Notes under the pieces: generated by a model
Databases searched by the model: none
Told to the model about the DNA's origin: nothing
The model's input: the letters and a program-made list of their open reading frames with translations, nothing else
UHGV virus genome: UHGV-0247313
Reading direction: 5' to 3' (one strand)
DNA length: 10,162 nucleotides
Origin: a virus
Made by a program: the position numbers and the translations under genes
Shown here: piece after piece, positions 1-10,162 of the stretch
Layout: each line of letters opens with the position of its first letter
How positions within the stretch are numbered: position 1 is the first letter of the stretch

Positions 1-241
1 TGATGGCATCGGGCTGGTTATCCCGCAGCCACAGCAAAACCGGGGCCATCAGCAGATTCTGGTCGCCGCTGAAATCCTCAATCACCGCGTTCAGGGTGTA
101 ACGGTACTCCCACGACATGGAGCTGGCCCCCGTGGCAACCAGCGAACCGTTATCCACAAACAGATGCAGTTTGTCCGGGTTATTGCGGACATAAGGCACC
201 GCTTTATTGAGGGCGTGGCGCAGGGATTGTGGTTTGTTCAC
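1..241 (-). CDS. R: Tail completion protein gpR-like, 5' part only (runs off the left edge)
   Basis: Minus-strand frame open from a GTG at 241..239, preceded by AGGAG 7 nt upstream, to position 1. Translation VNKPQSLRHALNKAVPYVRNNPDKLHLFVDNGSLVATGASS...LLWLRDNQPDAI resembles P2 gpR as I recall it. It overlaps the lysC 3' end, as in P2. Not in the ORF track because it has no stop in the window. Confidence 0.6.
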   Translation of the reverse strand, partial: MNKPQSLRHALNKAVPYVRNNPDKLHLFVDNGSLVATGASSMSWEYRYTLNAVIEDFSGDQNLLMAPVLLWLRDNQPDAI

Positions 242-494
242 TGTTTCGCTCCTGACACGCAATAATCATGTCCACTTTGTCTGCACAGACCGCCCAGGCG
301 GCCTCCGTTTCATCCAGCAACGCGTTCAGATCACCGTTAGTGCGCGGCGTTGCCTGATCCAGCCGACACGGCGTCACTCGCGGACAACCACTGACGGTAA
401 GCTGTACCTCCGGTGAGTGCCGGACGTTCCCGCAGCCGGATAATGTCAGCAGGCAAAGGAGTATCAGCCCAGCGGCGTAAATCCTCGTTCTCAC
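204..494 (-). CDS. lysC: o-spanin (Rz1-like outer-membrane lipoprotein), LysC-like
   Basis: 96 aa with a lipoprotein signal and lipobox (LLTLSGC). Starts inside lysB in another frame, the typical spanin arrangement. Confidence 0.8.
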   Translation of the reverse strand: MRTRIYAAGLILLCLLTLSGCGNVRHSPEVQLTVSGCPRVTPCRLDQATPRTNGDLNALLDETEAAWAVCADKVDMIIACQERNSEQTTIPAPRPQ

Positions 495-765
495 GTTTCA
501 GTTCCTCGATCCGGTGTTGTCGTTGTCTCAGCAGTGCACTGGTCTGTTCTGCTTCGGCATAGAGCCGCGCCTGCTCCCGGTTATTGGTTTCAGTCAGAAT
601 GGACAGGCTGATAAGCTGGCTGTTTTTCTTCGTCAGTTCCTGCGCTTTACTTTTCAGCGCCGCGCGCTGCGTTTCGATGGTGTGGCTGGCGCTGTTAAGC
701 CGCCACGACTGCCAGCCCAGCGCAACGAGTGCCAGCGCCACCACTACTGCCAGCGCACGCGTCAT
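337..765 (-). CDS. lysB: i-spanin (Rz-like), LysB-like
   Basis: 142 aa with an N-terminal transmembrane helix (ALAVVVALALVALGW) and a charged coiled-coil-like remainder. AAGGAG lies 8 nt upstream of the ATG at 765. Contains the embedded lysC. Confidence 0.8.
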   Translation of the reverse strand: MTRALAVVVALALVALGWQSWRLNSASHTIETQRAALKSKAQELTKKNSQLISLSILTETNNREQARLYAEAEQTSALLRQRQHRIEELKRENEDLRRWADTPLPADIIRLRERPALTGGTAYRQWLSASDAVSAGSGNAAH

Positions 766-925
766 AGTCCAGCTCCTTTAAGGCACCAGGCCATCTCCCG
801 CGCACGGCGGTTATCCAGCCCCTGATTAAACACACCTTTTACATAAACCCAGCGCGGCAACTGTCGGCACGCATCTGCCCAGCGCCGCTGATTGAGCAAT
901 TTCACCAGTGTGGAACTACAGGCAT
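766..925 (-). pseudogene. 3' remnant of an upstream lysis-module gene (lysA position), left by a deletion
   Basis: A minus-strand frame stays open through ...RRWADACRQLPRWVYVKGVFNQGLDNRRAREMAWCLKELDY* and stops 1 nt past the lysB start. It has no plausible start and abuts the O 3' end. Confidence 0.3.
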
Positions 926-1654
926 TGCCCGTTGCTGCTTCTGCAGAGCAGACTCCAGTTCAGACAGGCGTTCTTCCTGCTCAGACAGAGATTTTTCGGT
1001 TCGCGCGCTCAGGTTTTGCTGCTCAGTGGCGACCAGCTCCACGGCCTTATGCACATCAGAGAACCGGGCGTCATCGGACTGCTCTTTTTTGGTGAACAGC
1101 GCCGTGACGCGGGAAAACAGGGACGGTTTGTCGTCCTGGACTTCCTCCAGTTCGATCACCGTTTCCTCTGCAGCGGTAAAGAGATTGGCAGGATTCTGCT
1201 TGCGGTTTGCCAGCGGGTTATGGGCTGCACTGGCGCTGAATGTCAGCATTTCAGTGCCCAGACTGGCAGGGTCATCAGTGGCAGCCAGGCCGACCAGGTA
1301 GGCTTTGCCCGTATCAGCGAACTTCGGGCTGACTTCCATAGAGGTGAATAATTTCTGGCCTTTTTTCACCAGTTCCACCAGGGACTCCGTTGGCTCAACG
1401 TCGGCATACAGCGCCATCTTGCCTGCCAGCGGACCTTCCGTGATTTCCTCAGCAAACAGCGCCGTCACCTTGCCGTAGCGGTTAAAGGTGCTGTCCGGCA
1501 GATAAGACTTGATGTGCTCAAGGTTAATCAGCGCGGTATACACCGCCGGGTTGTAGCTGGCTGCCATCTGTTCCAGCCATTCACGCTGGATTTCGCGTCC
1601 GTCGGTGGTGGCACCTTCCACCCCGATGCGAAAACGCTTTGCTTTCACTGTCAT
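902..1654 (-). CDS. O: Capsid scaffolding protein gpO-like, probably 3'-truncated with a junction-derived C-terminus
   Basis: 250 aa. FRIGVEGATTDGREI...INLEHI...YLVGLAATDDPASLGTE...SDDARFSDVHKAVE matches the P2 gpO family. GGAG lies 8 nt upstream of the ATG. Shorter than P2 gpO as I recall it (about 284 aa); the last residues (RAMPVVPHW) look junction-derived. Confidence 0.85.
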   Translation of the reverse strand: MTVKAKRFRIGVEGATTDGREIQREWLEQMAASYNPAVYTALINLEHIKSYLPDSTFNRYGKVTALFAEEITEGPLAGKMALYADVEPTESLVELVKKGQKLFTSMEVSPKFADTGKAYLVGLAATDDPASLGTEMLTFSASAAHNPLANRKQNPANLFTAAEETVIELEEVQDDKPSLFSRVTALFTKKEQSDDARFSDVHKAVELVATEQQNLSARTEKSLSEQEERLSELESALQKQQRAMPVVPHW

Positions 1655-1732
1655 GAGCCGTGCTCCGTTAAAAAAAACTTACTGGAGCCTTATGGTTGCG
1701 GTGATGGGGGTAGTGAAACAATGCGCGGTATT

Positions 1733-1750
1733 TGTACCGACAACCACACA
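1733..1750. promoter_or_regulatory. Candidate Ogr/Delta-type late-activator site (TGT-N12-ACA) in the divergent O/P late promoter region
   Basis: TGTaccgacaaccacACA in the 142-bp O-P intergenic region. P2 late promoters carry TGT-N12-ACA dyads centred near -55. Confidence 0.4.
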
Positions 1751-1796
1751 AACCGCAGGCGGGGAAAGCCTTCATTCAAGGCTGTAGGTTTGTGCC

Positions 1797-3563
1797 ATGA
1801 ACACCACACTGACACCCGCAGATCTCGATCCCCGTCGGCAGGCCATGCTGCTGTACTTTCAGGGATACCGCGTAGCCCGCATTGCTGAAATGCTGGGCGA
1901 GAAAGTTGCAACCGTTCACAGCTGGAAAAAACGCGACAAGTGGGGTGACTATGGGCCGCTGGATCAGATGCAGCTCACCACCGCCGCACGCTACTGCCAG
2001 CTCATTATGAAGGAGCACAAAGAAGGGAAAGATTTCAAAGAGATTGACCTGCTGGCGCGCCAGTCGGAGCGCCATGCGCGGATCGGCAAGTTTAACAATG
2101 GCGGCAACGAAGCCGACTTAAACCCTAACGTCGCCAACCGCAACAAAGGCCCGCGTCGTCAGCCGGAAAAGAACGTTTTCACCGATGAACAGATTGAGAA
2201 GCTGGAAGAAATCTTCCATTCCTCCATGTTCAACTACCAGCGCCACTGGTGGGAAGCCGGAAAAACCAACCGCATCCGCAACCTGCTGAAGTCACGCCAG
2301 ATCGGCGCGACCTTCTATTTTGCCCGTGAAGCCCTGATTGACGCCCTGCTAACCGGGCGTAACCAGATTTTCCTTTCCGCCAGCAAGGCACAGGCCCACG
2401 TCTTTAAGCAGTACATCATCGACTTCGCCAAAGAAGTGGAGGTGGAGCTGAAAGGCGATCCGATAGTGCTTCCTAACGGGGCCACGCTGTACTTCCTCGG
2501 CACCAATGCCCGCACGGCCCAGAGTTACCACGGCAACCTGTATCTGGATGAATATTTCTGGATACCGAAATTCCAAGAGCTGCGCAAAGTGGCTTCCGGT
2601 ATGGCTATTCACAAAAAATGGCGACAAACCTATTTTTCCACGCCATCCAGCCTGACACACAGTGCTTATCCGTTCTGGTCCGGTGCGCTGTTCAACCGTG
2701 GGCGCAACAAAGCCGACAAGGTGGACATCGACCTGTCCCACAGCAATCTGGCCCCCGGCCTGCTGTGCACAGACGGGCAATACCGCCAGATAGTCACCGT
2801 GGAAGATGCGGTGCGCGGCGGCTGTAACCTGTTCGACCTCGACCAGCTACGCATGGAGTACAGCCCGGACGAATACCAGAACCTGCTGATGTGCGAGTTC
2901 GTGGACGATCTCGCGTCCGTGTTCCCGCTCAGCGAGCTGCAAGCGTGCATGGTGGACAGTTGGGAAATCTGGACCGACTTTCATGCACTGGCCCTGCGCC
3001 CGTTTGGCTGGCGCGAAGTGTGGATCGGTTATGACCCGGCAAAAGGTACGCAGAACGGCGACAGTGCCGGATGCGTGGTGGTGGCACCGCCAGCCGTGCC
3101 GGGTGGTAAGTTCCGCATTCTTGAGCGTCACCAGTGGCGCGGGATGGACTTCCGCGCCCAGGCTGACGCCATCAAAAAACTGACCGAGCAGTACAACGTG
3201 ACCTACATCGGCATCGACTCGACAGGTGTCGGCCACGGGGTTTACGAGAACGTGAAAGCGTTTTTTCCAGCCGTCCGGGAGTTTGTCTACAACCCCAACG
3301 TTAAAAACGCCCTGGTACTCAAGGCCTACGACATTATCAGTCACCGTCGTCTGGAGTTTGACGCCGGACACACCGACATAGCGCAGTCATTTATGGCAAT
3401 CCGTCGCGCCACCACCGCCAGCGGCAACCGCCCAACCTATGAAGCCAGCCGCAGCGAAGAAGCCAGCCATGCCGATCTGGCCTGGGCAACAATGCACGCA
3501 CTGTTTAACGAACCGCTGCAGGGCGAGTCCGCCAATACCAGCAATATTGTGGAGATTTTTTGA
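1797..3563 (+). CDS. P: Terminase large (ATPase) subunit gpP-like
   Basis: 588 aa, the size and family of P2 gpP. Divergent from O. Its stop overlaps the portal start (TGATG). Confidence 0.9.
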   Translation: MNTTLTPADLDPRRQAMLLYFQGYRVARIAEMLGEKVATVHSWKKRDKWGDYGPLDQMQLTTAARYCQLIMKEHKEGKDFKEIDLLARQSERHARIGKFNNGGNEADLNPNVANRNKGPRRQPEKNVFTDEQIEKLEEIFHSSMFNYQRHWWEAGKTNRIRNLLKSRQIGATFYFAREALIDALLTGRNQIFLSASKAQAHVFKQYIIDFAKEVEVELKGDPIVLPNGATLYFLGTNARTAQSYHGNLYLDEYFWIPKFQELRKVASGMAIHKKWRQTYFSTPSSLTHSAYPFWSGALFNRGRNKADKVDIDLSHSNLAPGLLCTDGQYRQIVTVEDAVRGGCNLFDLDQLRMEYSPDEYQNLLMCEFVDDLASVFPLSELQACMVDSWEIWTDFHALALRPFGWREVWIGYDPAKGTQNGDSAGCVVVAPPAVPGGKFRILERHQWRGMDFRAQADAIKKLTEQYNVTYIGIDSTGVGHGVYENVKAFFPAVREFVYNPNVKNALVLKAYDIISHRRLEFDAGHTDIAQSFMAIRRATTASGNRPTYEASRSEEASHADLAWATMHALFNEPLQGESANTSNIVEIF

Positions 3564-3979
3564 TGGGAAAGAGTAAGAAAAACCGCGCTGCGGCGACGAA
3601 CCAGATCCAGCATAAAAACCAAACTTCAGCCGAAGCATTCAGCTTCGGTGATCCCGTTCCTGTTCTGGACCGCCGCGAATTACTGGACTATGTGGAATGC
3701 GTAAAGATGGACCGCTGGTATGAGCCACCCGTAAGTTTTGACGGACTGGCGCGAACATTCCGCGCCGCCGTACACCACAGTTCACCGATTGCAGTAAAGT
3801 GCAACATTCTGACCAGCACCTACATCCCTCACCCGCTGCTCAGCCAGCAGGCGTTTTCACGTTTTGTGCAGGACTATCTGGTTTTTGGTAACGCCTACCT
3901 GGAGAAACGCACGAACCGATTCGGTGAAGTTATCGCCCTTGAGCCTGCGCTGGCAAAATACACCCGACGCGGATTAGAC

Positions 3980-4030
3980 GAACAGCGTGGCGGACTCGTT
4001 GAGCAGGGCGGATGGGATGGCAGAAAGATA
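3980..4030. repeat. Inverted-repeat arm, exact reverse complement of 4161..4211 (51 bp)
   Basis: Base-by-base comparison. A further 9-bp pair is 3971..3979 ggattagac and 4151..4159 gtctaatcc. Confidence 0.95.
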
Positions 4031-4160
4031 GCCGGGCAGGCCGTAGATCTCCTGGTTGATGTCCGGTTCCATCAGATGAAAAATGCTGCCTTTCGTGAAC
4101 TGATACGGCTGCGTGGTCATGCCGTATTGCACAAACCAGTAGGTATCTAGGTCTAATCCC

Positions 4161-4211
4161 TATCTTTCTGCCATCCCATCCGCCCTGCTCAACGAGTCCG
4201 CCACGCTGTTC
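4161..4211. repeat. Inverted-repeat arm in native orientation, partner of 3980..4030
   Basis: Encodes in-frame native portal sequence YLSAIPSALLNESATLF. Confidence 0.95.
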
Positions 4212-4657
4212 CGCCGAAAGTATTACATTAACGGTAGTCATGCAGGCTTCATCATGTACATGACCGATGCCGCGCAGAACCAGGAAGATGTGAACAACCT
4301 CCGCAATGCGATGAAAAGTGCCAAAGGCCCTGGCAACTTCCGCAACCTGTTTATGTACTCGCCTAATGGTAAAAAAGACGGACTTCAGATTATCCCGTTG
4401 TCAGAAGTCACAGCGAAGGATGAGTTTCTGAATATCAAGAACGTGAGCCGTGATGACATGATGGCGGCACACCGCGTGCCGCCGCAAATGATGGGAATTA
4501 TGCCTAATAATGTCGGGGGGTTTGGGGATGTGGAGAAGGCTAGCAAGGTATTCGTAAGAAACGAATTGATGCCCCTGCAGAAACGATTGCAGGAACTAAA
4601 TAACTGGTTGGACGAAGAAGTGCTCAATTTTTCAACCTATGAGCTTTAGTTTTAAAA

Positions 4658-4685
4658 CGAAGACCATTAGGTCTTCGCTTTATTT
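4658..4685. terminator. Bidirectional intrinsic terminator between convergent Q and the retron RT gene
   Basis: 8-bp stem cgaagacc/ggtcttcg with loop atta. T-rich tracts on both sides (ctttattt on plus; ttttaaa on minus). The RT stop codon sits in the loop. Confidence 0.6.
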
Positions 4686-5629
4686 AAAGGGTTCTTTCCA
4701 TATTTTTTTTCTAATTTGCTAATATAAGTTATTAATCTCCTATGGCTTTTTGAATCCACACTTAAAATAAATGACAACCATCCCCTAACGTGTTCTATCT
4801 CAGAAGACTTACCGCAAAATATATGATGTATCTTTGCTCTAATTTCTTTATATTTTTCTCTACCTATCCCAACTTTCTCTTGTGAAATAACTAAACCTGT
4901 AACTTTCCTCTGACTACGAGGCCCACTAATACAAGTTTTTTTTGAGTTAATAACCAATCCTTCACTTGGGATTATAGAAAATAAAAAATCACGTGCTTTA
5001 ACAACCTTTTTCATAGACTGTGCAGATAAGGTGAGATCATCGGCATATCTCGTATATATCAAGCCCCGACTACCTGCATAACCCTGAATACGATAATCAA
5101 GTTTAGAACATATTAGATTAGCTAATTTAGGTGATGATGGAGCACCTTGTGGTAGCAGATTTTTATAACAACATATTTTTGTCAAAACTGAAGATATTAG
5201 TCGATTATAACCAAGAGAATGGAACACTCCAAAAACTTTGTTAGCAGTTAAACTTGGGAAAAAATCCTCCAAATCAATATTCAGTATAAAGTTTGCCCCA
5301 ATATGCGGGGTAGCATTATTCAAAATAGATTGGTGCTTTTCAAATCCAATAGAAAAAGGAGATGACGACAGTTTATCTAAAATGTTACGTAGAACCCATC
5401 CTTGTAAGGCTTTAAGTTCTCGAGAAGGTTGGTAAATGGTTCTCATTCTCTTCTCTGGGCCTTTCTTTTCTACAGTGTAGATCCTATAGCGAAAATCAGC
5501 TGTATAGATTAACAACCGAAGTGTTTCAACAGATATGCGAGTCGCCTTAGACATGTCATGCAAATTGTTCATGACAGGTAGGCCGAGATTTCTCAATCTA
5601 AAAGTGTTCAAATATTCAGCGGATTTCAT
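4667..5629 (-). CDS. ret: Retron reverse transcriptase, Retron-Eco1 (Ec86)-type
   Basis: 320 aa with RT motifs: NIDLEDFFPS (motif A), LPQGAPSSPKLANL (motif B), YADD (motif C). Directly downstream of the msr-msd element. AT-rich unlike the flanking phage genes. Confidence 0.95.
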   Translation of the reverse strand: MKSAEYLNTFRLRNLGLPVMNNLHDMSKATRISVETLRLLIYTADFRYRIYTVEKKGPEKRMRTIYQPSRELKALQGWVLRNILDKLSSSPFSIGFEKHQSILNNATPHIGANFILNIDLEDFFPSLTANKVFGVFHSLGYNRLISSVLTKICCYKNLLPQGAPSSPKLANLICSKLDYRIQGYAGSRGLIYTRYADDLTLSAQSMKKVVKARDFLFSIIPSEGLVINSKKTCISGPRSQRKVTGLVISQEKVGIGREKYKEIRAKIHHIFCGKSSEIEHVRGWLSFILSVDSKSHRRLITYISKLEKKYGKNPLNKAKT

Positions 5630-5635
5630 GAAAGT

Positions 5636-5804
5636 TGCGCACCCTTACGTCAGAAAAAACGGGTTTCCTGGTTGGCTCGGAGAGCATCAGGCGATGCTCT
5701 CCGTTCCAACAAGGAAAACAGACAGTAACTCAGATTCAATGCAGGATGCCGAAACAACATCCAGAGGTTGACCTTAATGATAAACCTCTCGCTAAGGGTG
5801 CGCA
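5636..5804 (-). ncRNA. msr-msd: Retron msr-msd non-coding RNA (msDNA template), Ec86-type
   Basis: Flanked by 12-bp inverted repeats: tgcgcaccctta at 5636..5647 and taagggtgcgca at 5793..5804. Internal 10-bp perfect msd stem ggagagcatc/gatgctctcc at 5679..5702. Lies immediately upstream of the RT start. Matches the Ec86 msr-msd as I recall it. Confidence 0.85.
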
Positions 5805-6715
5805 TACGGAATCTTATCATAGTTAAATGTTGATTTTCTACGGTTTTCAAAATTCATAATCTCAAGCCGCAATCGGTCAAGTGTCTTTCTATCAAAGACG
5901 CTCCTAACATAGCTAGCCCCCAAAGCAGTGACCTGATAACCATCAGTCATTTGAAGTATTTTTCGTTCATTTATTAGACGAGAAACAACGGATCTAACAA
6001 TAATTTTAGATAAAACATCATCTTGCTTTATCGCTTTAAAAGCTAGTTCACACAGTGTGCGGTAGTTGACACTATCCAGTAAATAGATACAAGGCAATAG
6101 AAACCGCTCTGCGTATAATATATTTCCAATATCTTTTGATACTTTATTTTCTTTCCTAACCTTCTTAATAGATGCCATTAATTTTTTATATAATCGTAAT
6201 TTTCTGGCAACATCAATAGATGAATCACACATTTCTTTTAGTTCATTTGAACTACAACGCAAAACAGATTTTGAATTAAACTTACGCAACAGGCGAACAG
6301 GACCATAGTTAATAAAGCTACGTTTTGATTTAAATTTTGCATCTTGAATGCAAATCAACTTTCTCCTTAAGTTTTCATTATTAGAGAACGCACCAAGCTC
6401 TGTGAAAGACCCCGGACTTTCAGGAAATAAAATTATTACATCGACAGCTTCAGCCAGAATATTTTCTAAACTTAAAAGGCTATGCTGCCCTTGACCAGCC
6501 AAAAGATCATCAAATAGATCTTCTGGATAAAATATATCAACATCACTGAACTTTGCTAAAAATTGTGATAATTGATGACGCCAAGATTGATGATTAGCAA
6601 CGTCACCACCACATAGAAAAATGGTTATTTTAATATTAGCTCCTCGATAGAAGCCTTTCTTTGTGAGATGTCCTATAAGCTGTTGTTGCTGCTCATCGGT
6701 AAATTTTTTATTCAT
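5792..6715 (-). CDS. Retron effector: nucleoside deoxyribosyltransferase-like (NDT-like) N-terminal domain with a C-terminal putative DNA-binding domain
   Basis: 307 aa. N-terminal Rossmann-like motifs (ITIFLCGGD; VIILFPESPGSFTELGA). Upstream of and overlapping the msr a1 repeat. Same AT-rich composition as the RT gene. Confidence 0.8.
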   Translation of the reverse strand: MNKKFTDEQQQQLIGHLTKKGFYRGANIKITIFLCGGDVANHQSWRHQLSQFLAKFSDVDIFYPEDLFDDLLAGQGQHSLLSLENILAEAVDVIILFPESPGSFTELGAFSNNENLRRKLICIQDAKFKSKRSFINYGPVRLLRKFNSKSVLRCSSNELKEMCDSSIDVARKLRLYKKLMASIKKVRKENKVSKDIGNILYAERFLLPCIYLLDSVNYRTLCELAFKAIKQDDVLSKIIVRSVVSRLINERKILQMTDGYQVTALGASYVRSVFDRKTLDRLRLEIMNFENRRKSTFNYDKIPYAHP

Positions 6716-7187
6716 AATCTCCCCGCTTTTTTTTCTACTTTATACATCAAGTTATGAATAGATCCAATCTCCATACCACATGGCGCGCGCTCGTATCCCC
6801 GCCACGCCTGCCCGCTTTATGCAGTGGTTTTCATGCACATGCATAACATGAGCAAAAGCCCGCCAGTTCTGGCGGATCTGAGCAAAGACGATCCTCAATC
6901 GATCATGCGATTTCATGCAGCATAGTCATGCACTGTCAAGGAAGTGAAAATCCGTATCTGAATGGCCACTTGAAAAACGGATCATACGGGTTTACAAAGA
7001 TGAATGTTCGCTGTGAACGGGAAGCGGAAGTTAACTTTCAGATAACATAATCCATATGCACGAGAACCTCTAAAATAGAATGGGACACCTAAGCGGGGTA
7101 CTTACAACGATTCTTTCCATATTCACAGTTAACACTCTGTTTGGCGTATTTTTATTCAAATAGCAAACACCAATAAAAGGAGTTTCC

Positions 7188-7523
7188 ATGAACAATATTC
7201 CCCCTATACCACAGTTAGGAATTTATGTCTCAAAAATCGATCCCACCCTACGTATCACTGTAACCGATGTTGATATTGTTGATGGTGAGGATGATTCTCC
7301 TGATGATGAATTGTTTTATTTAGTCCACTGGATCGAGGGGGAAGATGAAAGTGATATGACAGCAATGGGATTTGAGCTAGACCCAGTAGAGTGGCAGGCT
7401 TTCGTTGAATCTGAGCAATTAGTGTTTGAGCGTGATCCGTACATGGATTCAATCCCCGAAAATTCAAACTTGGCAAAGATTCGGGATTTTCTCATGAAGA
7501 CTAAACAGAATGATCATTCGTAA
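7188..7523 (+). CDS. Hypothetical small, strongly acidic protein (111 aa)
   Basis: AAGGAG lies 7 nt upstream of the ATG. About 26 Asp+Glu against about 8 Lys+Arg by manual count. No family recognised. Confidence 0.6.
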   Translation: MNNIPPIPQLGIYVSKIDPTLRITVTDVDIVDGEDDSPDDELFYLVHWIEGEDESDMTAMGFELDPVEWQAFVESEQLVFERDPYMDSIPENSNLAKIRDFLMKTKQNDHS

Positions 7524-7677
7524 GTGTAAGCATCCATCAGGAAAATGGTTTTGTAAGTGAATCATCAACTTTTAGAGAGTCTCAGACACTCCCACTTCTG
7601 CTTCTGACACAAAGCGGACGATCACTTATCAAAATAACCGCCCACCTTACGCCTTATTTCACTCATTGCCCAAACTA

Positions 7678-7707
7678 GCCCCCATCAGAATGAATCCTCC
7701 TGGGGGC
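7678..7707. terminator. Possible weak hairpin terminator downstream of the DinI-like gene
   Basis: 7-bp stem gccccca/tgggggc with a 16-nt loop. Weak T-tracts on both sides. Confidence 0.2.
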
Positions 7708-7715
7708 AACATTTC

Positions 7716-7949
7716 TTAATGCAGCCAGCTGTCGTCCTCCCACACCTTCTGCATAATTTTCATCACTTGTTTTCTTTCTTCATCCAGTTGCAGTCCGGTT
7801 AGTTCCACACCGTTAGAGCTACCTTTGCGAATGCGAATTACCGTTTTGGGATACAGGGGGCGCAGATTGCGGTAAAGCTCGGATTCAAGGGCGTCCAGGG
7901 TAGACTGGCTAATCTTCTGCTCTTTATCGATCATTATTTCAATGCGCAT
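7716..7949 (-). CDS. dinI: DinI-like protein (SOS-response family)
   Basis: Start chosen at the internal ATG 7949..7947, preceded by AGGTGA with a 5-nt spacer. MRIEIMIDKEQKISQSTLDALESELYRNL...QKVWEDDSWLH has DinI family length and pattern. The track ORF 7716..8021 is a spurious 5' extension. Confidence 0.8.
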   Translation of the reverse strand: MRIEIMIDKEQKISQSTLDALESELYRNLRPLYPKTVIRIRKGSSNGVELTGLQLDEERKQVMKIMQKVWEDDSWLH

Positions 7950-7959
7950 AAAAGTCACC

Positions 7960-8148
7960 TCAGCTGATGACATCCATTGAGCGGTTGTATTCGTGGCTTC
8001 TGATTTTTGCCATGAGTTCATCAGTCAATTCAGAAACCCACTGCAGAGCCAGCCCCTTCTCTTCATCACTACACTCACTAGCCGCTACAAGCTTAAGAAA
8101 AAAATCAATGCGCTGGAGCTTCAAAGACTCCAAAAAATAGTCCTGCAT
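7960..8148 (-). CDS. Hypothetical 62-aa protein, first gene of the LexA-box operon
   Basis: AGGAGG lies 4 nt upstream of the ATG. Its stop overlaps the dinI-like RBS, suggesting coupling. No family recognised. Confidence 0.5.
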   Translation of the reverse strand: MQDYFLESLKLQRIDFFLKLVAASECSDEEKGLALQWVSELTDELMAKIRSHEYNRSMDVIS

Positions 8149-8188
8149 CTTTCCTCCTATGACACCAAAACAATACTGTATACATAAC

Positions 8189-8208
8189 CACTGTTTATAT
8201 TTACAGTA
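8189..8208. promoter_or_regulatory. LexA box (SOS operator) upstream of orf62 and the DinI-like gene
   Basis: caCTGTttatatttACAGta fits the CTGT-N8-ACAG consensus with an AT-rich spacer, about 40 bp upstream of the orf62 start. A second half-site tactgtata lies at 8174..8182. Confidence 0.65.
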
Positions 8209-8300
8209 TATAATAATCTTACTGATGTAAAACGTTTTTTTACGTTCATCGGCCTGATATGCCTGGTATTATTAAGAGCACGAATTGTCAACCCGCGTAA

Positions 8301-9746
8301 TTAATACAGGTTCCGCCACTTATCATCTTCCTTCAGACGCTGGTTCCGATAGAAGATACGCAGGCCTGCTCCTGACGGAATACTGCCGCCGCGAAGGAGC
8401 AAATCGACTTCTTTCTCGCTGCCATCAAATCCCCTGGACTTCAGTTCATAGACGAGCTGCTGTCGCTGATGGTCTGTAATTCGCTGTTTGTAGTCTTTAC
8501 GCCGTTTCGGTTTCACCTGGCGTAACCTTGCAGCCAGTTCCCGGCGCTCTTTTTTGCTCATACTGTGCAGGTAATTGTGCAACTCCTTGTCATTCATACG
8601 GGTAATATCCGTTCTGGAGTCCCCATCAGCTGATTTGTCTTTCCCTTGTTGGTTCAAATTTTCAGCAAGGGGACAGTTATTGCCACGAGTCCAAGGGGCG
8701 CAAGCGCCCTGGTCGGCTGCCGCCTCCTGAACGTCAACGGCCTTACGAACCATTTTCCACTTCACCGCATGAGTGCAGATCTTGCCCTCTGCAATGGGTG
8801 ACCAGATGCCATAAATACGAATACCGTGATCGCCATATGCGGTCGGTTCTTCGTTGATTTCATAAGCAGTTCTGATGAGGTGATATTTGCGGGGAACCAG
8901 TACGCCGCCCTGCTTCATGATGTAGGTGGCAAAACAACCAGCATCAGCAGCAGCCAGGATTGCATCAAGACGCGGGTTATCCAGTACCGGCGCACCTGCT
9001 TTTTTGTCACCCTGTTGCCTTGCCGCCTGACCAGCCAGCAATCGCAGTTCACGGTAAGCCTGACGCCCCGGAATGCCAAAGAAGCGGAATTGCTGAACAC
9101 GATGCAGAGACGCCCAGGCATTAACGTATTCAGCGTTATCACGCAGGGATTTACCCGTTTCCTTGCTGATCTCCCCAGCCAGACCACGCCCGTCAATGTT
9201 CTTACTGATGTATTTCGCGATATAGCTTGTTGGCGTACCTTTGCGCGGGTTTATCAGCTCAGACTTAAAGCGTGGTCCCGTGTTATTGCCCAGCTCCTCG
9301 CGGTCTTCACGGATGGCAAACTTACGCAGTAATGCAGTGATGGCGCGGCGGTCTTTTTTACGCATGAAACACATGAGATGCCAGTGCACAGTACCGTCAT
9401 GATGCGGCTCAGCTACCGCACCTGCAGCAACACGCCCGATCTCTGCGGTTGCACTCATGACGTAATGTGGCAGTTTCTCTTTTGCCACCTCATTAATCGG
9501 TACGCATGGCAGGCAGTGAATCTGAGCCAGAAAACCATCTACCAGCGTTGAATCTTCAGTCAGATCGGTAAGCAGCCAGATTTCTGGTGCGGTTAATAAA
9601 TGAGGTTGCGCTGGGTTCAACTTGTTCCGCAGAATCTGCACATTCATGCCAGCACGTTCTGCCAGTTGCACCAGGTTGTGGCGCAATGCGAATGCACGAC
9701 AGGCTTCATCAAAATGTGGATGTTTGGAAACTTGGTAATCAAACAT
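8301..9746 (-). CDS. A: In-frame fusion: CII-like regulator N-terminus (about 110 aa) joined to a P2 gpA-like rolling-circle replication nickase C-terminal region
   Basis: N-terminus [25 protein letters not shown]...[29 protein letters not shown] matches the phage CII (186 CII/CP76-like) family. It then switches to [15 protein letters not shown] (HUH motif) and [12 protein letters not shown] (paired catalytic tyrosines). The HUH motif sits near residue 120 here; in P2 gpA as I recall it sits far further in. Start taken at ATG 9746, as in the plus-strand copy at 10087. Confidence 0.75.
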
Positions 9747-9805
9747 GGTCAATGCCTCTGATGTATTTCAGAATCGAACTAATTAAGGTTTAGATTGCAT
9801 TCTGA
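9671..9805. repeat. Left arm of a 135-bp perfect inverted repeat (partner 10028..10162)
   Basis: Exact reverse-complement match over the full length, limited by the window end. Holds the cII-like start, the intergenic region and the last 9 codons of the 73-aa ORF. Confidence 0.95.
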
Positions 9806-9832
9806 TCATCATTAAACGAGGAATGTTGCATC

Positions 9833-10054
9833 ATGAGACCTAACATTTCAATCACTCTTACCACCCCTCATGTGACTATTGAACGCTATAGCGAGCTGAC
9901 AGGGCTATCCATCGATACCATCAATGACATGTTGGCTGATGGACGCCTTATCCGTCACCGACTGCGCAAAGATAAAAAACGCGAAAAAGTGATGATCAAC
10001 ATAGCAGCAATGACCGTTGATGCGCTTTCAGAATGCAATCTAAACCTTAATTAG
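9833..10054 (+). CDS. Small helix-turn-helix DNA-binding regulator (Apl/Cox-like?)
   Basis: 73 aa with an HTH-like segment ([23 protein letters not shown]) and a basic tail. Sits directly upstream of the plus-strand cII-like start, as apl/cox precedes cII/B in 186/P2-type early operons. Confidence 0.45.
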
Positions 10055-10162
10055 TTCGATTCTGAAATACATCAGAGGCATTGACCATGTTTGATTACCA
10101 AGTTTCCAAACATCCACATTTTGATGAAGCCTGTCGTGCATTCGCATTGCGCCACAACCTGG
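10028..10162. repeat. Right arm of the 135-bp inverted repeat (partner 9671..9805)
   Basis: Reverse complement of 9671..9805. It may extend past the window end. Confidence 0.95.
10087..10162 (+). CDS. CII-like regulator, 5' end only (second, plus-strand copy; runs off the right edge)
   Basis: ATG at 10087 with AGAGG upstream. [25 protein letters not shown] is identical to the N-terminus of the minus-strand fusion gene. Confidence 0.65.

What the first reader, a model, noticed from the sequence alone, without database searches (positions are those of the whole stretch)
4650..8300. Accessory island between the portal gene and the replication gene
Between the end of Q and the A-like gene, the window holds the retron, a small acidic ORF, and a LexA-regulated orf62/dinI-like pair. 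This is where P2-family phages carry variable cargo (P2 old/tin, 186 tum) and a known anti-phage hotspot. The retron RT and Q converge on one shared bidirectional terminator (4658..4685), suggesting insertion precisely at the Q 3' end.
Basis: partly seen in the sequence, partly recalled or inferred. Interest (0 to 1): 0.6.

Follow-up and report, generated by a model that had tools for sequence, protein, structure and literature searches.

The report
Known retron in P2-phage cargo hotspot
The interval is the well-known cargo region next to the DNA-packaging site of a crippled P2/186-type prophage of E. coli B, and it carries the already solved anti-phage retron Ec86 (Retron-Eco1), so it is real but ordinary.

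Summary
Window 4400-8500 is 100% identical to E. coli B/BL21(DE3). The reverse transcriptase (RT) and the 307-aa effector match the chains of the solved Retron Ec86 (Retron-Eco1) structures over their full lengths. The ncRNA, the shared hairpin, the acidic ORF and the LexA box are all present.

The reading as one inserted island is only partly right. Sixteen related phage or prophage loci show two separate cargo slots pivoting on an invariant 35-bp cos core.
- Slot L runs from the portal tail to cos and holds the retron here. Relatives carry an Ec67-type retron, another II-A retron, bSEFIR, OLD-like, TIR and PDC-S06 genes there.
- Slot R runs from the cos block to dinI and holds a DUF8087 gene here. 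Relatives carry PifA-like or PDC-S49 genes, other genes, or nothing.
- The two slots assort independently.
- P2 old/tin and 186 orf97 lie on the slot R side, not where the retron sits.

The orf62/DinI pair is a conserved, LexA-controlled split version of 186 Tum. It is core phage regulation, not cargo.

The gpA-gpQ hotspot (Rousset 2022) and the retron mechanism are published. Only DUF8087 and the cos-pivot detail remain open.

The parts
4581..4649 (+). Last 23 codons of portal gene Q, which travel with the slot L cargo
   Evidence: The tail is 100% identical in all four Eco1-retron carriers, even where upstream Q is only 92.4% identical. It has no DNA homology in relatives with other cargo. 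The C-terminal peptides differ with each cargo.
4653..4682 (.). Hairpin shared by the convergent Q and RT genes (bidirectional terminator-like)
   Evidence: (I5). The stem is 8 bp, flanked by an A-tract and a U-tract. Free energy is -13.8 kcal/mol on the + strand and -19.7 on the - strand. The RT stop codon lies in the loop. Each of 11 different cargoes has its own hairpin at this junction.
4667..5629 (-). Retron-Eco1 (Ec86) reverse transcriptase, 320 aa
   Evidence: PADLOC RT_II-A 7e-128. NCBIfam retron_St85_RT. Full-length match to PDB 7v9u/7v9x/8qbk chains, E 4.5e-214.
5636..5804 (-). Retron ncRNA (msr-msd) bounded by the a1/a2 repeats. The msd template hairpin is at 5664-5717. The msDNA should correspond to about 5650-5735 on the + strand.
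   Evidence: 12-nt perfect inverted repeat at 5636-5647 and 5793-5804, and a 25-nt hairpin (I6, I1). Fold -81.5 kcal/mol, z -8.2. The msDNA extent is approximate and rests on my memory of the Ec86 sequence.
5792..6715 (-). Retron-Eco1 effector: NDT-like N-glycosidase with a C-terminal DNA-binding domain, 307 aa. Its last codons contain the a1 repeat.
   Evidence: PADLOC NDT_II-A 2.7e-94. NCBIfam STM3845_fam. Full-length match to PDB 7v9x_C/8qbk/8qbm, E 1.2e-203.
6739..6767 (-). Candidate cassette-borne promoter for the retron operon (TTGGAT-17-TATAAA). Inferred only.
   Evidence: Read from the sequence. It falls below the threshold of the consensus scan. It lies in cargo-specific DNA between cos and the effector start codon.
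6784..6818 (.). Invariant 35-bp cos core. The 19-nt cohesive-end sequence is at 6790-6808 (reverse complement GGCGTGGCGGGGATACGAG).
   Evidence: 15 of 19 bases match 186 cos, GGCGTGGCGGGGAAAGCAT. The core is invariant in all 9 aligned loci. Sequence to its left is unrelated between different cargoes. It was found in 9 of 10 relatives by pattern search.
6783..7035 (.). Conserved cos block on the A side of cos, including a conserved hairpin at 6859-6876
   Evidence: Homology to relatives resumes at 6775-6784 and runs to 6931-7035. The hairpin is flagged as terminator-like on the - strand. Its stem is kept while its loop varies. The cos-block allele is linked to the slot R cargo.
7188..7523 (+). 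Slot R cargo: DUF8087 (PF26332) small acidic protein, 111 aa, function unknown
7716..7949 (-). DinI-like protein, 77 aa, homologue of the C-terminal domain of 186 Tum
   Evidence: Pfam DinI 1.2e-22. 41% identity to Tum residues 71-145, E 1e-24. phrog_189.
7960..8148 (-). orf62, homologue of the N-terminal (antirepressor) part of 186 Tum
   Evidence: orf62 and Tum residues 1-70 hit the same three PHROG families: 698 (5.9e-38 / 6.7e-06), 8554 (1.1e-08 / 3.3e-12) and 1993 (0.002 / 2e-23). Pairwise BLASTP was negative.
8191..8231 (-). LexA box (8191-8206) overlapping the -10 of a TTTACA-17-TACTGT promoter (-10 at 8208..8203, -35 at 8231..8226)
   Evidence: It is the only perfect CTGT-N8-ACAG in the window, against 0.10 expected. 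The 16-mer is identical in 11 of 12 relatives and replaced by a different perfect box in the twelfth, while the neighbouring bases vary. The layout matches the annotated 186 p95/LexA site.
8301..9416 (-). 3' remnant of replication gene A, fused in frame to a CII N-terminus (ORF 8301-9752). This is the right border of the interval.
   Evidence: RefSeq marks it as a pseudogene missing its N-terminus. Pfam finds Phage_CP76 at residues 12-115 and Phage_GPA at 113-189, matching profile positions 243-321 of 321.

Best explanation
Window 4650-8300 is the cos-proximal region of the defective P2/186-family prophage of E. coli B, the element called Rybb*B in the literature. It has four parts, described below.

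1. Cargo slot L runs from the tail of portal gene Q to about 6 nt before cos. It holds the complete type II-A3 Retron-Eco1 (Ec86) operon on the minus strand: effector, msr-msd ncRNA, RT. The operon probably has its own promoter. It ends at a hairpin shared with Q.

The mechanism comes from published work and was not tested here. The RT copies msd into msDNA. RT-msDNA binds the N-glycosidase effector and the complex forms filaments. A phage Dcm methylase modifies the msDNA. The effector then hydrolyses NAD(P)+ and the infection aborts.

2. The cos site comes next, with an invariant 35-bp core and a conserved block of 125-250 bp.

3. Cargo slot R holds one small acidic gene of unknown function (DUF8087). 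It sits where P2 has old/tin and has the same orientation.

4. The last part is a conserved LexA-repressed operon, orf62 plus a DinI-like gene. It is a split version of 186 tum, the SOS antirepressor module. It belongs to the phage core.

Cargo in the two slots is exchanged independently by recombination in the conserved flanks (Q, the cos core, dinI). This last point is an inference from the mosaic identity patterns.
For: Identity of the locus:
- The interval is 100% identical to BL21(DE3) and REL606.
- The literature states that 'Rybb*B carries retron Ec86' (PMC3032704).

Retron parts.

Mechanism: PMC12673091 and PMC13376987, which summarise Wang 2022, Carabias 2024 and Wang 2024. Classification as II-A3 comes from PMC7736814.

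cos.

Two slots:
- BLAST boundaries in 10 relatives are.
- The Eco1 cassette occurs in 48 of 5,426 genomes. It is paired with three different slot R contents.
- The DUF8087 cassette occurs in 132 genomes. It is paired with the Eco1 retron, an Ec67-type retron or a DprA system.
- Identity steps in FDAARGOS_433 run 92.4%, 100%, 99.6%, 85.9% across Q 3', Q tail, retron and cos block.
- The allele switch falls inside the invariant core.

Defence content in relatives.

Split Tum and the LexA box.

The hotspot is published: PMC9122126 and PMC13586616.
Against: - Nothing contradicts the identification.
- The retron promoter is only a weak consensus match and was not found by the scan.
- On the RT strand the hairpin is followed by only four U residues, so termination in that direction is unproven.
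- The homology of orf62 to Tum rests on shared PHROG families, not on a direct pairwise hit.
- The function of DUF8087 is unknown.
- The prophage is defective: A is truncated and the capsid genes are deleted. In E. coli B, therefore, cos and the SOS module are probably relics with no current role.
- The comparative sample is small: 16 phage or prophage loci, chosen from BLAST hit lists.
Confidence: 0.93

Rival explanations
1. One contiguous accessory island (retron, acidic ORF and orf62/dinI) was inserted as a unit at the 3' end of Q.
For: All the genes lie between Q and A. G+C is lower than in the structural genes across the whole interval. The hairpin abuts the Q stop codon.
Against: - A conserved cos block sits in the middle of the interval.
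- The retron and the acidic ORF occur without each other in other genomes.
- orf62/dinI is present at 96-99% identity in 14 of the 15 same-lineage relatives inspected, whatever the cargo.
- No target-site duplication is present at the borders.
Confidence: 0.05
2. The retron moved here by its own activity, through retrotransposition or a dedicated site-specific insertion, and cos/Q is its preferred target.
For: Three kinds of retron occupy exactly this slot: Eco1, an Ec67-type retron and another II-A retron.
Against: - Unrelated non-retron cargoes use the same borders: bSEFIR, OLD-like, TIR, PDC-S06, RES and DprA genes.
- The left border lies at variable positions inside Q homology.
- No integrase, transposase or direct repeats are present in the cassette.
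Confidence: 0.03
3. The DUF8087 protein is functionally tied to the retron, for example as an extra antitoxin, an anti-retron factor or a sensor adaptor.
For: It lies within 500 bp of the retron in E. coli B and in strain 20A24. It is small and very acidic, as many phage inhibitor proteins are.
Against: - cos separates it from the retron, and it is transcribed on the opposite strand.
- The retron occurs with other slot R genes.
- DUF8087 occurs with an Ec67-type retron, with a DprA system, in a Klebsiella prophage lysogeny operon, and in non-phage islands.
- The solved Retron-Eco1 complexes listed show only RT and effector protein chains.
Confidence: 0.05

Closest known systems
Retron-Eco1 (Ec86), type II-A3 retron of E. 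coli B/BL21
   Same: It is the same element. The DNA is 100% identical to BL21(DE3). The RT and effector match the PDB chains 7v9u, 7v9x, 8qbk and 8qbm over their full lengths. The gene order is effector, msr-msd, RT.
   Different: Nothing differs within the retron. RefSeq annotates a shorter RT (295 aa) than the 320-aa protein used for the structures.
gpA-gpQ cos-proximal defence hotspot of P2-like phages (Rousset et al. 2022, PMC9122126; 2026 follow-up PMC13586616)
   Same: The position is the same, between portal and replication genes next to cos. The hypervariability is the same. Retrons and other defence genes are present.
   Different: Those papers treat the locus as a single hotspot defined by its flanking genes. 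Here it resolves into two independently assorting slots separated by the conserved cos block, plus a conserved SOS operon that is not cargo.
P2 old/tin region and 186 tum-orf97 SOS operon
   Same: The DUF8087 gene sits where P2 old/tin sit, between cos and A, and is transcribed away from cos in the same way. orf62 plus DinI correspond to 186 tum and have the same LexA-over-(-10) promoter layout.
   Different: The retron is on the other side of cos, in a slot that in P2 and 186 is only 160-190 bp of non-coding DNA with the tQ/tW terminator. Tum is one 146-aa protein in 186 but two separate ORFs here.
Ec67-type (RT-Toprim, type I-C) retron carried by related P2/186-like prophages
   Same: A retron occupies exactly the same slot L in a near-identical backbone with the same DUF8087 and DinI genes (L002).
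   Different: It is a different retron type, an RT-Toprim fusion with no separate NDT effector. The cassette has no DNA homology to this one.
P4 satellite cos-adjacent hotspot (psu-int)
   Same: Variable defence cargo directly abuts the shared P2/P4 core cos signal (PMC9122126).
   Different: It is a different element with different flanking genes. According to PMC13586616, cargo is almost never exchanged between P2 and P4.

Membership tests
Retron, type II-A3 (Retron-Eco1/Ec86) | Retron-clade reverse transcriptase | tested here: met
   PADLOC RT_II-A 7e-128. NCBIfam retron_St85_RT scores 287.6 bits against a cutoff of 235. Full-length match to PDB Retron Ec86 RT chains.
Retron, type II-A3 (Retron-Eco1/Ec86) | Adjacent ncRNA with terminal a1/a2 inverted repeats, msr stem-loops and a long msd hairpin | tested here: met
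   12-nt perfect a1/a2 repeats, a 25-nt msd hairpin and a fold z-score of -8.2. Rfam has no matching family.
Retron, type II-A3 (Retron-Eco1/Ec86) | NDT-like effector with a C-terminal DNA-binding domain encoded next to the ncRNA-RT module | tested here: met
   PADLOC NDT_II-A 2.7e-94. NCBIfam STM3845_fam scores 176.6 bits against a cutoff of 100. Full-length match to the PDB effector chains. Type definition from PMC7736814.
Retron, type II-A3 (Retron-Eco1/Ec86) | Production of branched msDNA, and abortive-infection defence by NAD(P)+ hydrolysis | not testable with these tools
   Taken from the literature for this same locus (PMC12673091 and PMC13376987).
P2-family gpA-gpQ cos-proximal hotspot | Located between portal gpQ and replication gpA, next to cos | tested here: met
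   Gene order. cos at 6790-6808.
P2-family gpA-gpQ cos-proximal hotspot | Different gene content at the same position in otherwise near-identical phages, enriched in defence genes | tested here: met
   12 different slot L contents, counting P2/186 where it is empty, in backbones 83-99% identical. PADLOC hits in most slot L genes tested and two slot R genes.
186 Tum / p95 SOS-induction operon | LexA box overlapping the -10 of the promoter | tested here: met
   A perfect box at 8191-8206 overlaps the TACTGT -10, as at the annotated 186 p95. It is conserved in 12 of 12 relatives. LexA binding itself was not testable.
186 Tum / p95 SOS-induction operon | Tum N-terminal (antirepressor) region and DinI-like C-terminal region | tested here: met
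   The DinI part is 41% identical to Tum residues 71-145. orf62 shares PHROGs 698, 8554 and 1993 with Tum residues 1-70.
186 Tum / p95 SOS-induction operon | Both regions in a single polypeptide, as in 186 Tum | tested here: not met
   They are two ORFs separated by a stop codon and a 10-nt gap (7960-8148 and 7716-7949), here and in all relatives. The operon probably works like tum but is a split variant.
Bidirectional intrinsic terminator | G+C-rich hairpin followed by a U-tract on both strands | tested here: inconclusive
   The hairpin is stable on both strands. The scan accepts it on the + strand only. On the - strand only UUUU follows it.
P2/186 cos site | 19-nt cohesive-end sequence with conserved flanks, cut by terminase | tested here: met
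   15 of 19 bases match 186 cos, with the first 13 identical. The 35-bp core is invariant in 9 loci. Cleavage was not testable.

The most novel reading that the evidence does not exclude
Two modest readings are not excluded.

(a) The gpA-gpQ 'hotspot' may really be two hotspots that pivot on the cos cleavage site itself. New left-end/right-end cargo combinations would then arise when cohesive ends of different co-resident P2-like genomes join, or from recombination stimulated by the terminase cut, rather than from ordinary crossovers alone. This would explain why the allele switch falls inside the invariant 35-bp core, and why both P2 and P4 hotspots abut cos.

(b) DUF8087, the only uncharacterised gene here, may be a new lysogen-expressed exclusion or counter-defence protein. 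It occupies the old/tin slot, and in Klebsiella prophages it sits in the repressor-integrase operon.
Probability: 0.25. Interest if true: 0.4.

Novelty: already known. Interest (0 to 1): 0.15.

Why it matters
The result mainly clears the finding. The retron is the most studied retron there is: Ec86/Eco1, with solved structures and wide use in genome editing. The locus is a published defence hotspot, so no discovery is at stake.

Three smaller points are useful for people who mine these hotspots.
- Defining the locus by its flanking genes (gpQ to gpA) lumps together two independently exchanged cargo slots, the cos site and a conserved SOS operon. That inflates counts of 'gene arrangements' and can mislabel core regulators as cargo.
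- The portal's last ~23 codons and a private terminator hairpin travel with the left cargo.
- DUF8087 is a compact, widespread, wholly uncharacterised occupant of the old/tin position and is cheap to test.

Tried and rejected
- Rfam scan of the whole window at E<=1: no hit, so the retron ncRNA is not covered by any Rfam family.
- Pfam on the effector, orf62, ORF111 and the small ORFs: nothing. PADLOC, NCBIfam and PHROGs were needed instead.
- BLASTP of orf62 against 186 Tum: no hit. The relation appeared only through shared PHROG profiles.
- Target-site duplication at the cassette borders: only an 11-nt T-run, which is not at the borders.
- ORF54 (6752-6916, phrog_28685) and ORF40 (6928-7050) were considered as genes and rejected. 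They overlie the conserved cos block, and the equivalents are annotated as pseudogenes with internal stops in relatives.
- Full-text search for the Ec86 ncRNA sequence: no hit.
- Odegrip 2006 and the 2026 H-NS preprint could not be opened.
- Sigma-70 scan: 7 hits against 11.4 expected, so it was uninformative in this AT-rich DNA.

Full report
WHAT THE WINDOW IS

The window is a piece of the defective P2/186-family prophage that sits next to rcdA/ybjJ in E. coli B. Positions 4160-9805 and 1-3979 are 100% identical to BL21(DE3) NC_012971.2. RefSeq annotates the stretch in this order: capsid scaffold gpO, terminase ATPase, portal, 'retron St85 family' RT, 'retron St85 family' effector, a hypothetical protein, a DinI-like protein, a 62-aa hypothetical protein, a truncated replication endonuclease, a truncated CII, then the CI repressor and integrase. 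The E. coli W genome paper states that this element, 'Rybb*B', carries retron Ec86 (PMC3032704). The interval is therefore inside a prophage. That prophage is crippled. The ORF at 8301-9752 fuses the N-terminus of CII (Pfam Phage_CP76) to the last third of gpA (Phage_GPA profile positions 243-321 of 321). The capsid genes between the lysozyme gene and gpO are also gone.

CHECKING THE OBSERVATION

All listed items exist.

The RT (4667-5629, minus strand, 320 aa) scores 7e-128 on PADLOC RT_II-A. It matches the PDB chains 'Retron Ec86 reverse transcriptase' over residues 1-320 at E 4.5e-214 (7v9u, 7v9x, 8qbk).

It is the retron effector: PADLOC NDT_II-A 2.7e-94 and a full-length match to PDB 7v9x_C/8qbk/8qbm, 'Retron Ec86 putative ribosyltransferase/DNA-binding protein'.

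Between the two genes lies the ncRNA. It has a perfect 12-nt a1/a2 inverted repeat (5636-5647 and 5793-5804) and a 25-nt msd hairpin (5664-5717). The fold has a free energy of -81.5 kcal/mol, z = -8.2. The a1 repeat lies within the last codons of the effector, and a2 ends 8 nt before the RT start codon. Rfam has no family for it.

The hairpin claimed at 4658-4685 is real. The stem is at 4658-4677 and the extended arms are at 4653-4665 and 4670-4682. It is stable on both strands, z = -3.8 and -6.4. The two stop codons are only 17 nt apart, and the RT stop sits in the loop.

The acidic ORF (7188-7523, plus strand) has pI 4.05 and a strong Shine-Dalgarno sequence.

The DinI-like gene (7716-7949) and orf62 (7960-8148) lie downstream of the only perfect CTGT-N8-ACAG in the window (8191-8206; 0.10 expected by chance).

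In P2 and 186 the portal gene ends about 190 bp from the left cohesive end. The window contains the reverse complement of GGCGTGGCGGGGATACGAG at 6790-6808. That matches 15 of 19 bases of 186 cos, with the first 13 identical, and the surrounding sequence also resembles the joined 186 ends.

The cos site therefore lies inside the 'island', between the retron and the acidic ORF. In virion DNA the retron effector would start about 75 nt from the left end. The acidic ORF and the DinI operon would lie at the right end.

COMPARISON WITH RELATIVES

I fetched 16 related phage or prophage loci. BLAST of 4400-8500 against ten of them gives the following pattern.
- Homology stops inside the portal 3' end, at 4568-4646.
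- It resumes at 6775-6784.
- It runs through a conserved cos block to 6931-7035.
- It is lost again, then returns at 7594-7718.
- It continues at 95-99% through dinI, orf62 and A.

A nine-sequence alignment shows a 35-bp core (6784-6818) that is invariant in all nine. DNA immediately to its left is unrelated between different cargoes.

The left stretch (slot L) holds the following:
- the Eco1 retron here;
- an Ec67-type RT-Toprim retron;
- a different II-A retron, in an E. coli strain and in Klebsiella phage 4LV2017;
- a PDC-S06 ATPase;
- a RES-domain protein;
- bSEFIR;
- a HEPN/PD-Lambda-3_B-like protein;
- an OLD-like nuclease;
- a TIR protein;
- DprA;
- three unknown genes.

The right stretch (slot R) holds DUF8087 here and in two relatives. 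Elsewhere it holds a PifA-like NTPase, PDC-S49, assorted unknown genes, or nothing. P2 old/tin and 186 orf97 are in slot R. In P2 and 186, slot L is empty apart from the tQ/tW terminator.

THE TWO SLOTS ASSORT INDEPENDENTLY

The Eco1 cassette (4650-6782) occurs in 48 of 5,426 complete genomes: 44 are B-lineage laboratory strains and 4 are wild isolates. In those wild isolates it is paired with DUF8087 (strain 20A24), with three other genes (FDAARGOS_433), or with a 531-bp gene (JNE082640).

The DUF8087 stretch occurs in 132 genomes. It is paired with the Eco1 retron, an Ec67-type retron, or the DprA system of E2348/69.

Segment identities show the mosaic. In FDAARGOS_433 the portal 3' part is 92.4% identical, the last 69 nt of the portal 100%, the retron 99.6% and the cos block 85.9%. 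The cos-block allele follows the slot R cargo: it is 99.3% identical in the two other DUF8087 carriers but 86-89% in the other two Eco1 carriers. The switch therefore happens inside the invariant core that contains the cleavage site.

Each of the 11 cargoes examined brings its own G+C-rich hairpin into the 17-52 nt between the convergent stop codons. Each also brings its own version of the portal's last ~20 residues. There is no target-site duplication.

I conclude that cargo is replaced by recombination in the flanks and not inserted by a mobile-element mechanism. Whether the cos ends themselves drive the exchange is an untested inference. From memory, terminase-cut cos is a known recombination entry point in lambda.

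THE ORF62/DINI PAIR IS NOT CARGO

The pair is present in 14 of the 15 same-lineage relatives inspected at 96-99% identity, regardless of cargo.

The DinI-like protein is 41% identical to residues 71-145 of 186 Tum. orf62 and Tum residues 1-70 hit the same three PHROG families (698, 8554, 1993). The pair is therefore a split Tum.

The promoter reads TTTACA-17-TACTGT with the LexA box starting in the -10. This is the layout annotated for 186 p95. The 16-bp box is identical in 11 of 12 relatives and is replaced by another perfect box in the twelfth, while the bases beside it vary.

The prophage also has a 186-type CI repressor. This operon is therefore most likely the SOS antirepressor module of the phage core. 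The function is inferred from 186. In E. coli B it can no longer lead to phage production.

HOW THE RETRON WORKS

This comes from the literature and was not tested here. Retron-Eco1 is a type II-A3 retron (PMC7736814). The RT makes an msDNA of about 85 nt. RT-msDNA binds the N-glycosidase effector and the complex polymerises into filaments. A phage-encoded Dcm methylase methylates the msDNA and triggers the system. The effector then hydrolyses NAD(P)+, causing abortive infection (PMC12673091 and PMC13376987, citing Wang 2022, Carabias 2024 and Wang 2024).

From the sequence I add only three points:
- the operon order is effector, ncRNA, RT;
- a weak candidate promoter (TTGGAT-17-TATAAA, 6767-6739) lies in the cargo-specific 70 bp between cos and the effector start codon;
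- a conserved hairpin in the cos block (6859-6876, terminator-like on the minus strand) could insulate the retron from read-through of the SOS operon.

THE ONE UNKNOWN: DUF8087

The 111-aa protein belongs to PF26332/DUF8087. There are 61 homologue clusters, and every named one is from Enterobacterales. Conservation is strong, with a mean column identity of 79%.

Elsewhere the gene sits in a Klebsiella P2-like prophage between the repressor operon and the integrase. It also occurs in non-phage islands, next to a helicase-nuclease in Morganella and next to a transposase and a DEAD-box helicase in E. coli. This pattern fits a lysogen-expressed accessory gene. It argues against a dedicated partnership with the retron. 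Its function remains unknown.

VERDICT

The finding is real and mostly correctly read, but it is already known. It is Retron-Eco1 in the published gpA-gpQ hotspot (PMC9122126; PMC13586616). The refinements are a bipartite hotspot pivoting on cos, a portal tail and terminator that travel with the cargo, and a split Tum that belongs to the core. They are useful for annotation but not surprising.

Outside the finding, the window differs from every complete genome by two small inversions with duplicated flanks. These look like an assembly or editing artefact.

Noticed in passing
window 3980-4159: This 180-bp stretch is the reverse complement of BL21(DE3) sequence (L001 5633-5812). It replaces the native 119 bp, with 52-bp and 9-bp inverted duplications of the flanks. 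It breaks the portal gene into two ORFs (3560-4150 and 4254-4649). None of the 48 complete genomes carrying this locus has it. It looks like an assembly or editing artefact.
   Followed up: partly
window 9806-10162: The end of the window is an inverted copy of BL21 L001 11272-11629, so 135 bp (9671-9805) appear again inverted at 10028-10162. This flips the apl/cox-like gene (9833-10054) relative to all complete genomes.
   Followed up: partly
window 8301-9752: The 'A-like gene' is an in-frame fusion of the CII N-terminus (Pfam Phage_CP76, residues 12-115) to the last third of replication protein A. A deletion created it by removing fil, the Dam methylase gene and most of A. In intact relatives A is 2,415 bp.
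   Followed up: yes
window ~762-932: A second deletion joins a lysozyme remnant directly to the capsid-scaffold gene gpO. It removes the major capsid, small terminase, head-completion and holin genes that are present in relatives.
   Followed up: partly
window 4581-4649, and the portal C-termini of L002-L011: The last ~20-23 residues of the portal differ with each slot L cargo but keep a loose motif (N-x-W ... F-x-x-Y). They are 100% identical among all Eco1-retron carriers, so the portal tail is effectively part of the cassette.
   Followed up: partly
window 6859-6876: This hairpin in the cos block keeps its stem in all relatives while its loop varies (GTTC, GAAC, TTCC). It is terminator-like on the minus strand. 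It may correspond to 186 t95b, or it may be part of the packaging signal.
   Followed up: no
window 6752-6916 (-): A 54-aa ORF matches phrog_28685 (2.6e-26) but spans the cos site. Relatives annotate the equivalent as a pseudogene with internal stops. The PHROG family is probably built on non-coding cos DNA.
   Followed up: partly
L019-L022 (Klebsiella and gut metagenome) 6001-6327; L015-L018 (Morganella) 6001-6336: DUF8087 homologues sit in other contexts. In a Klebsiella P2-like prophage the order is repressor, Flk_N protein, DUF8087, integrase. In a Morganella island the gene lies beside a 1,169-aa UvrD/PLD helicase-nuclease, near an antirestriction gene.
   Followed up: partly
window 4667-5629 versus the RefSeq CDS (window 4667-5554): RefSeq annotates the Ec86 RT as 295 aa in most B-lineage genomes. 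The solved structures use the 320-aa protein that starts at 5629. One wild strain (JNE082640) has the long form annotated.
   Followed up: no
window 8173-8190: A second, imperfect LexA-like half-site (CTGTATACATAACCAC) lies directly next to the perfect box, on the gene side. Unlike the perfect box, it varies among relatives (I3, 73).
   Followed up: no
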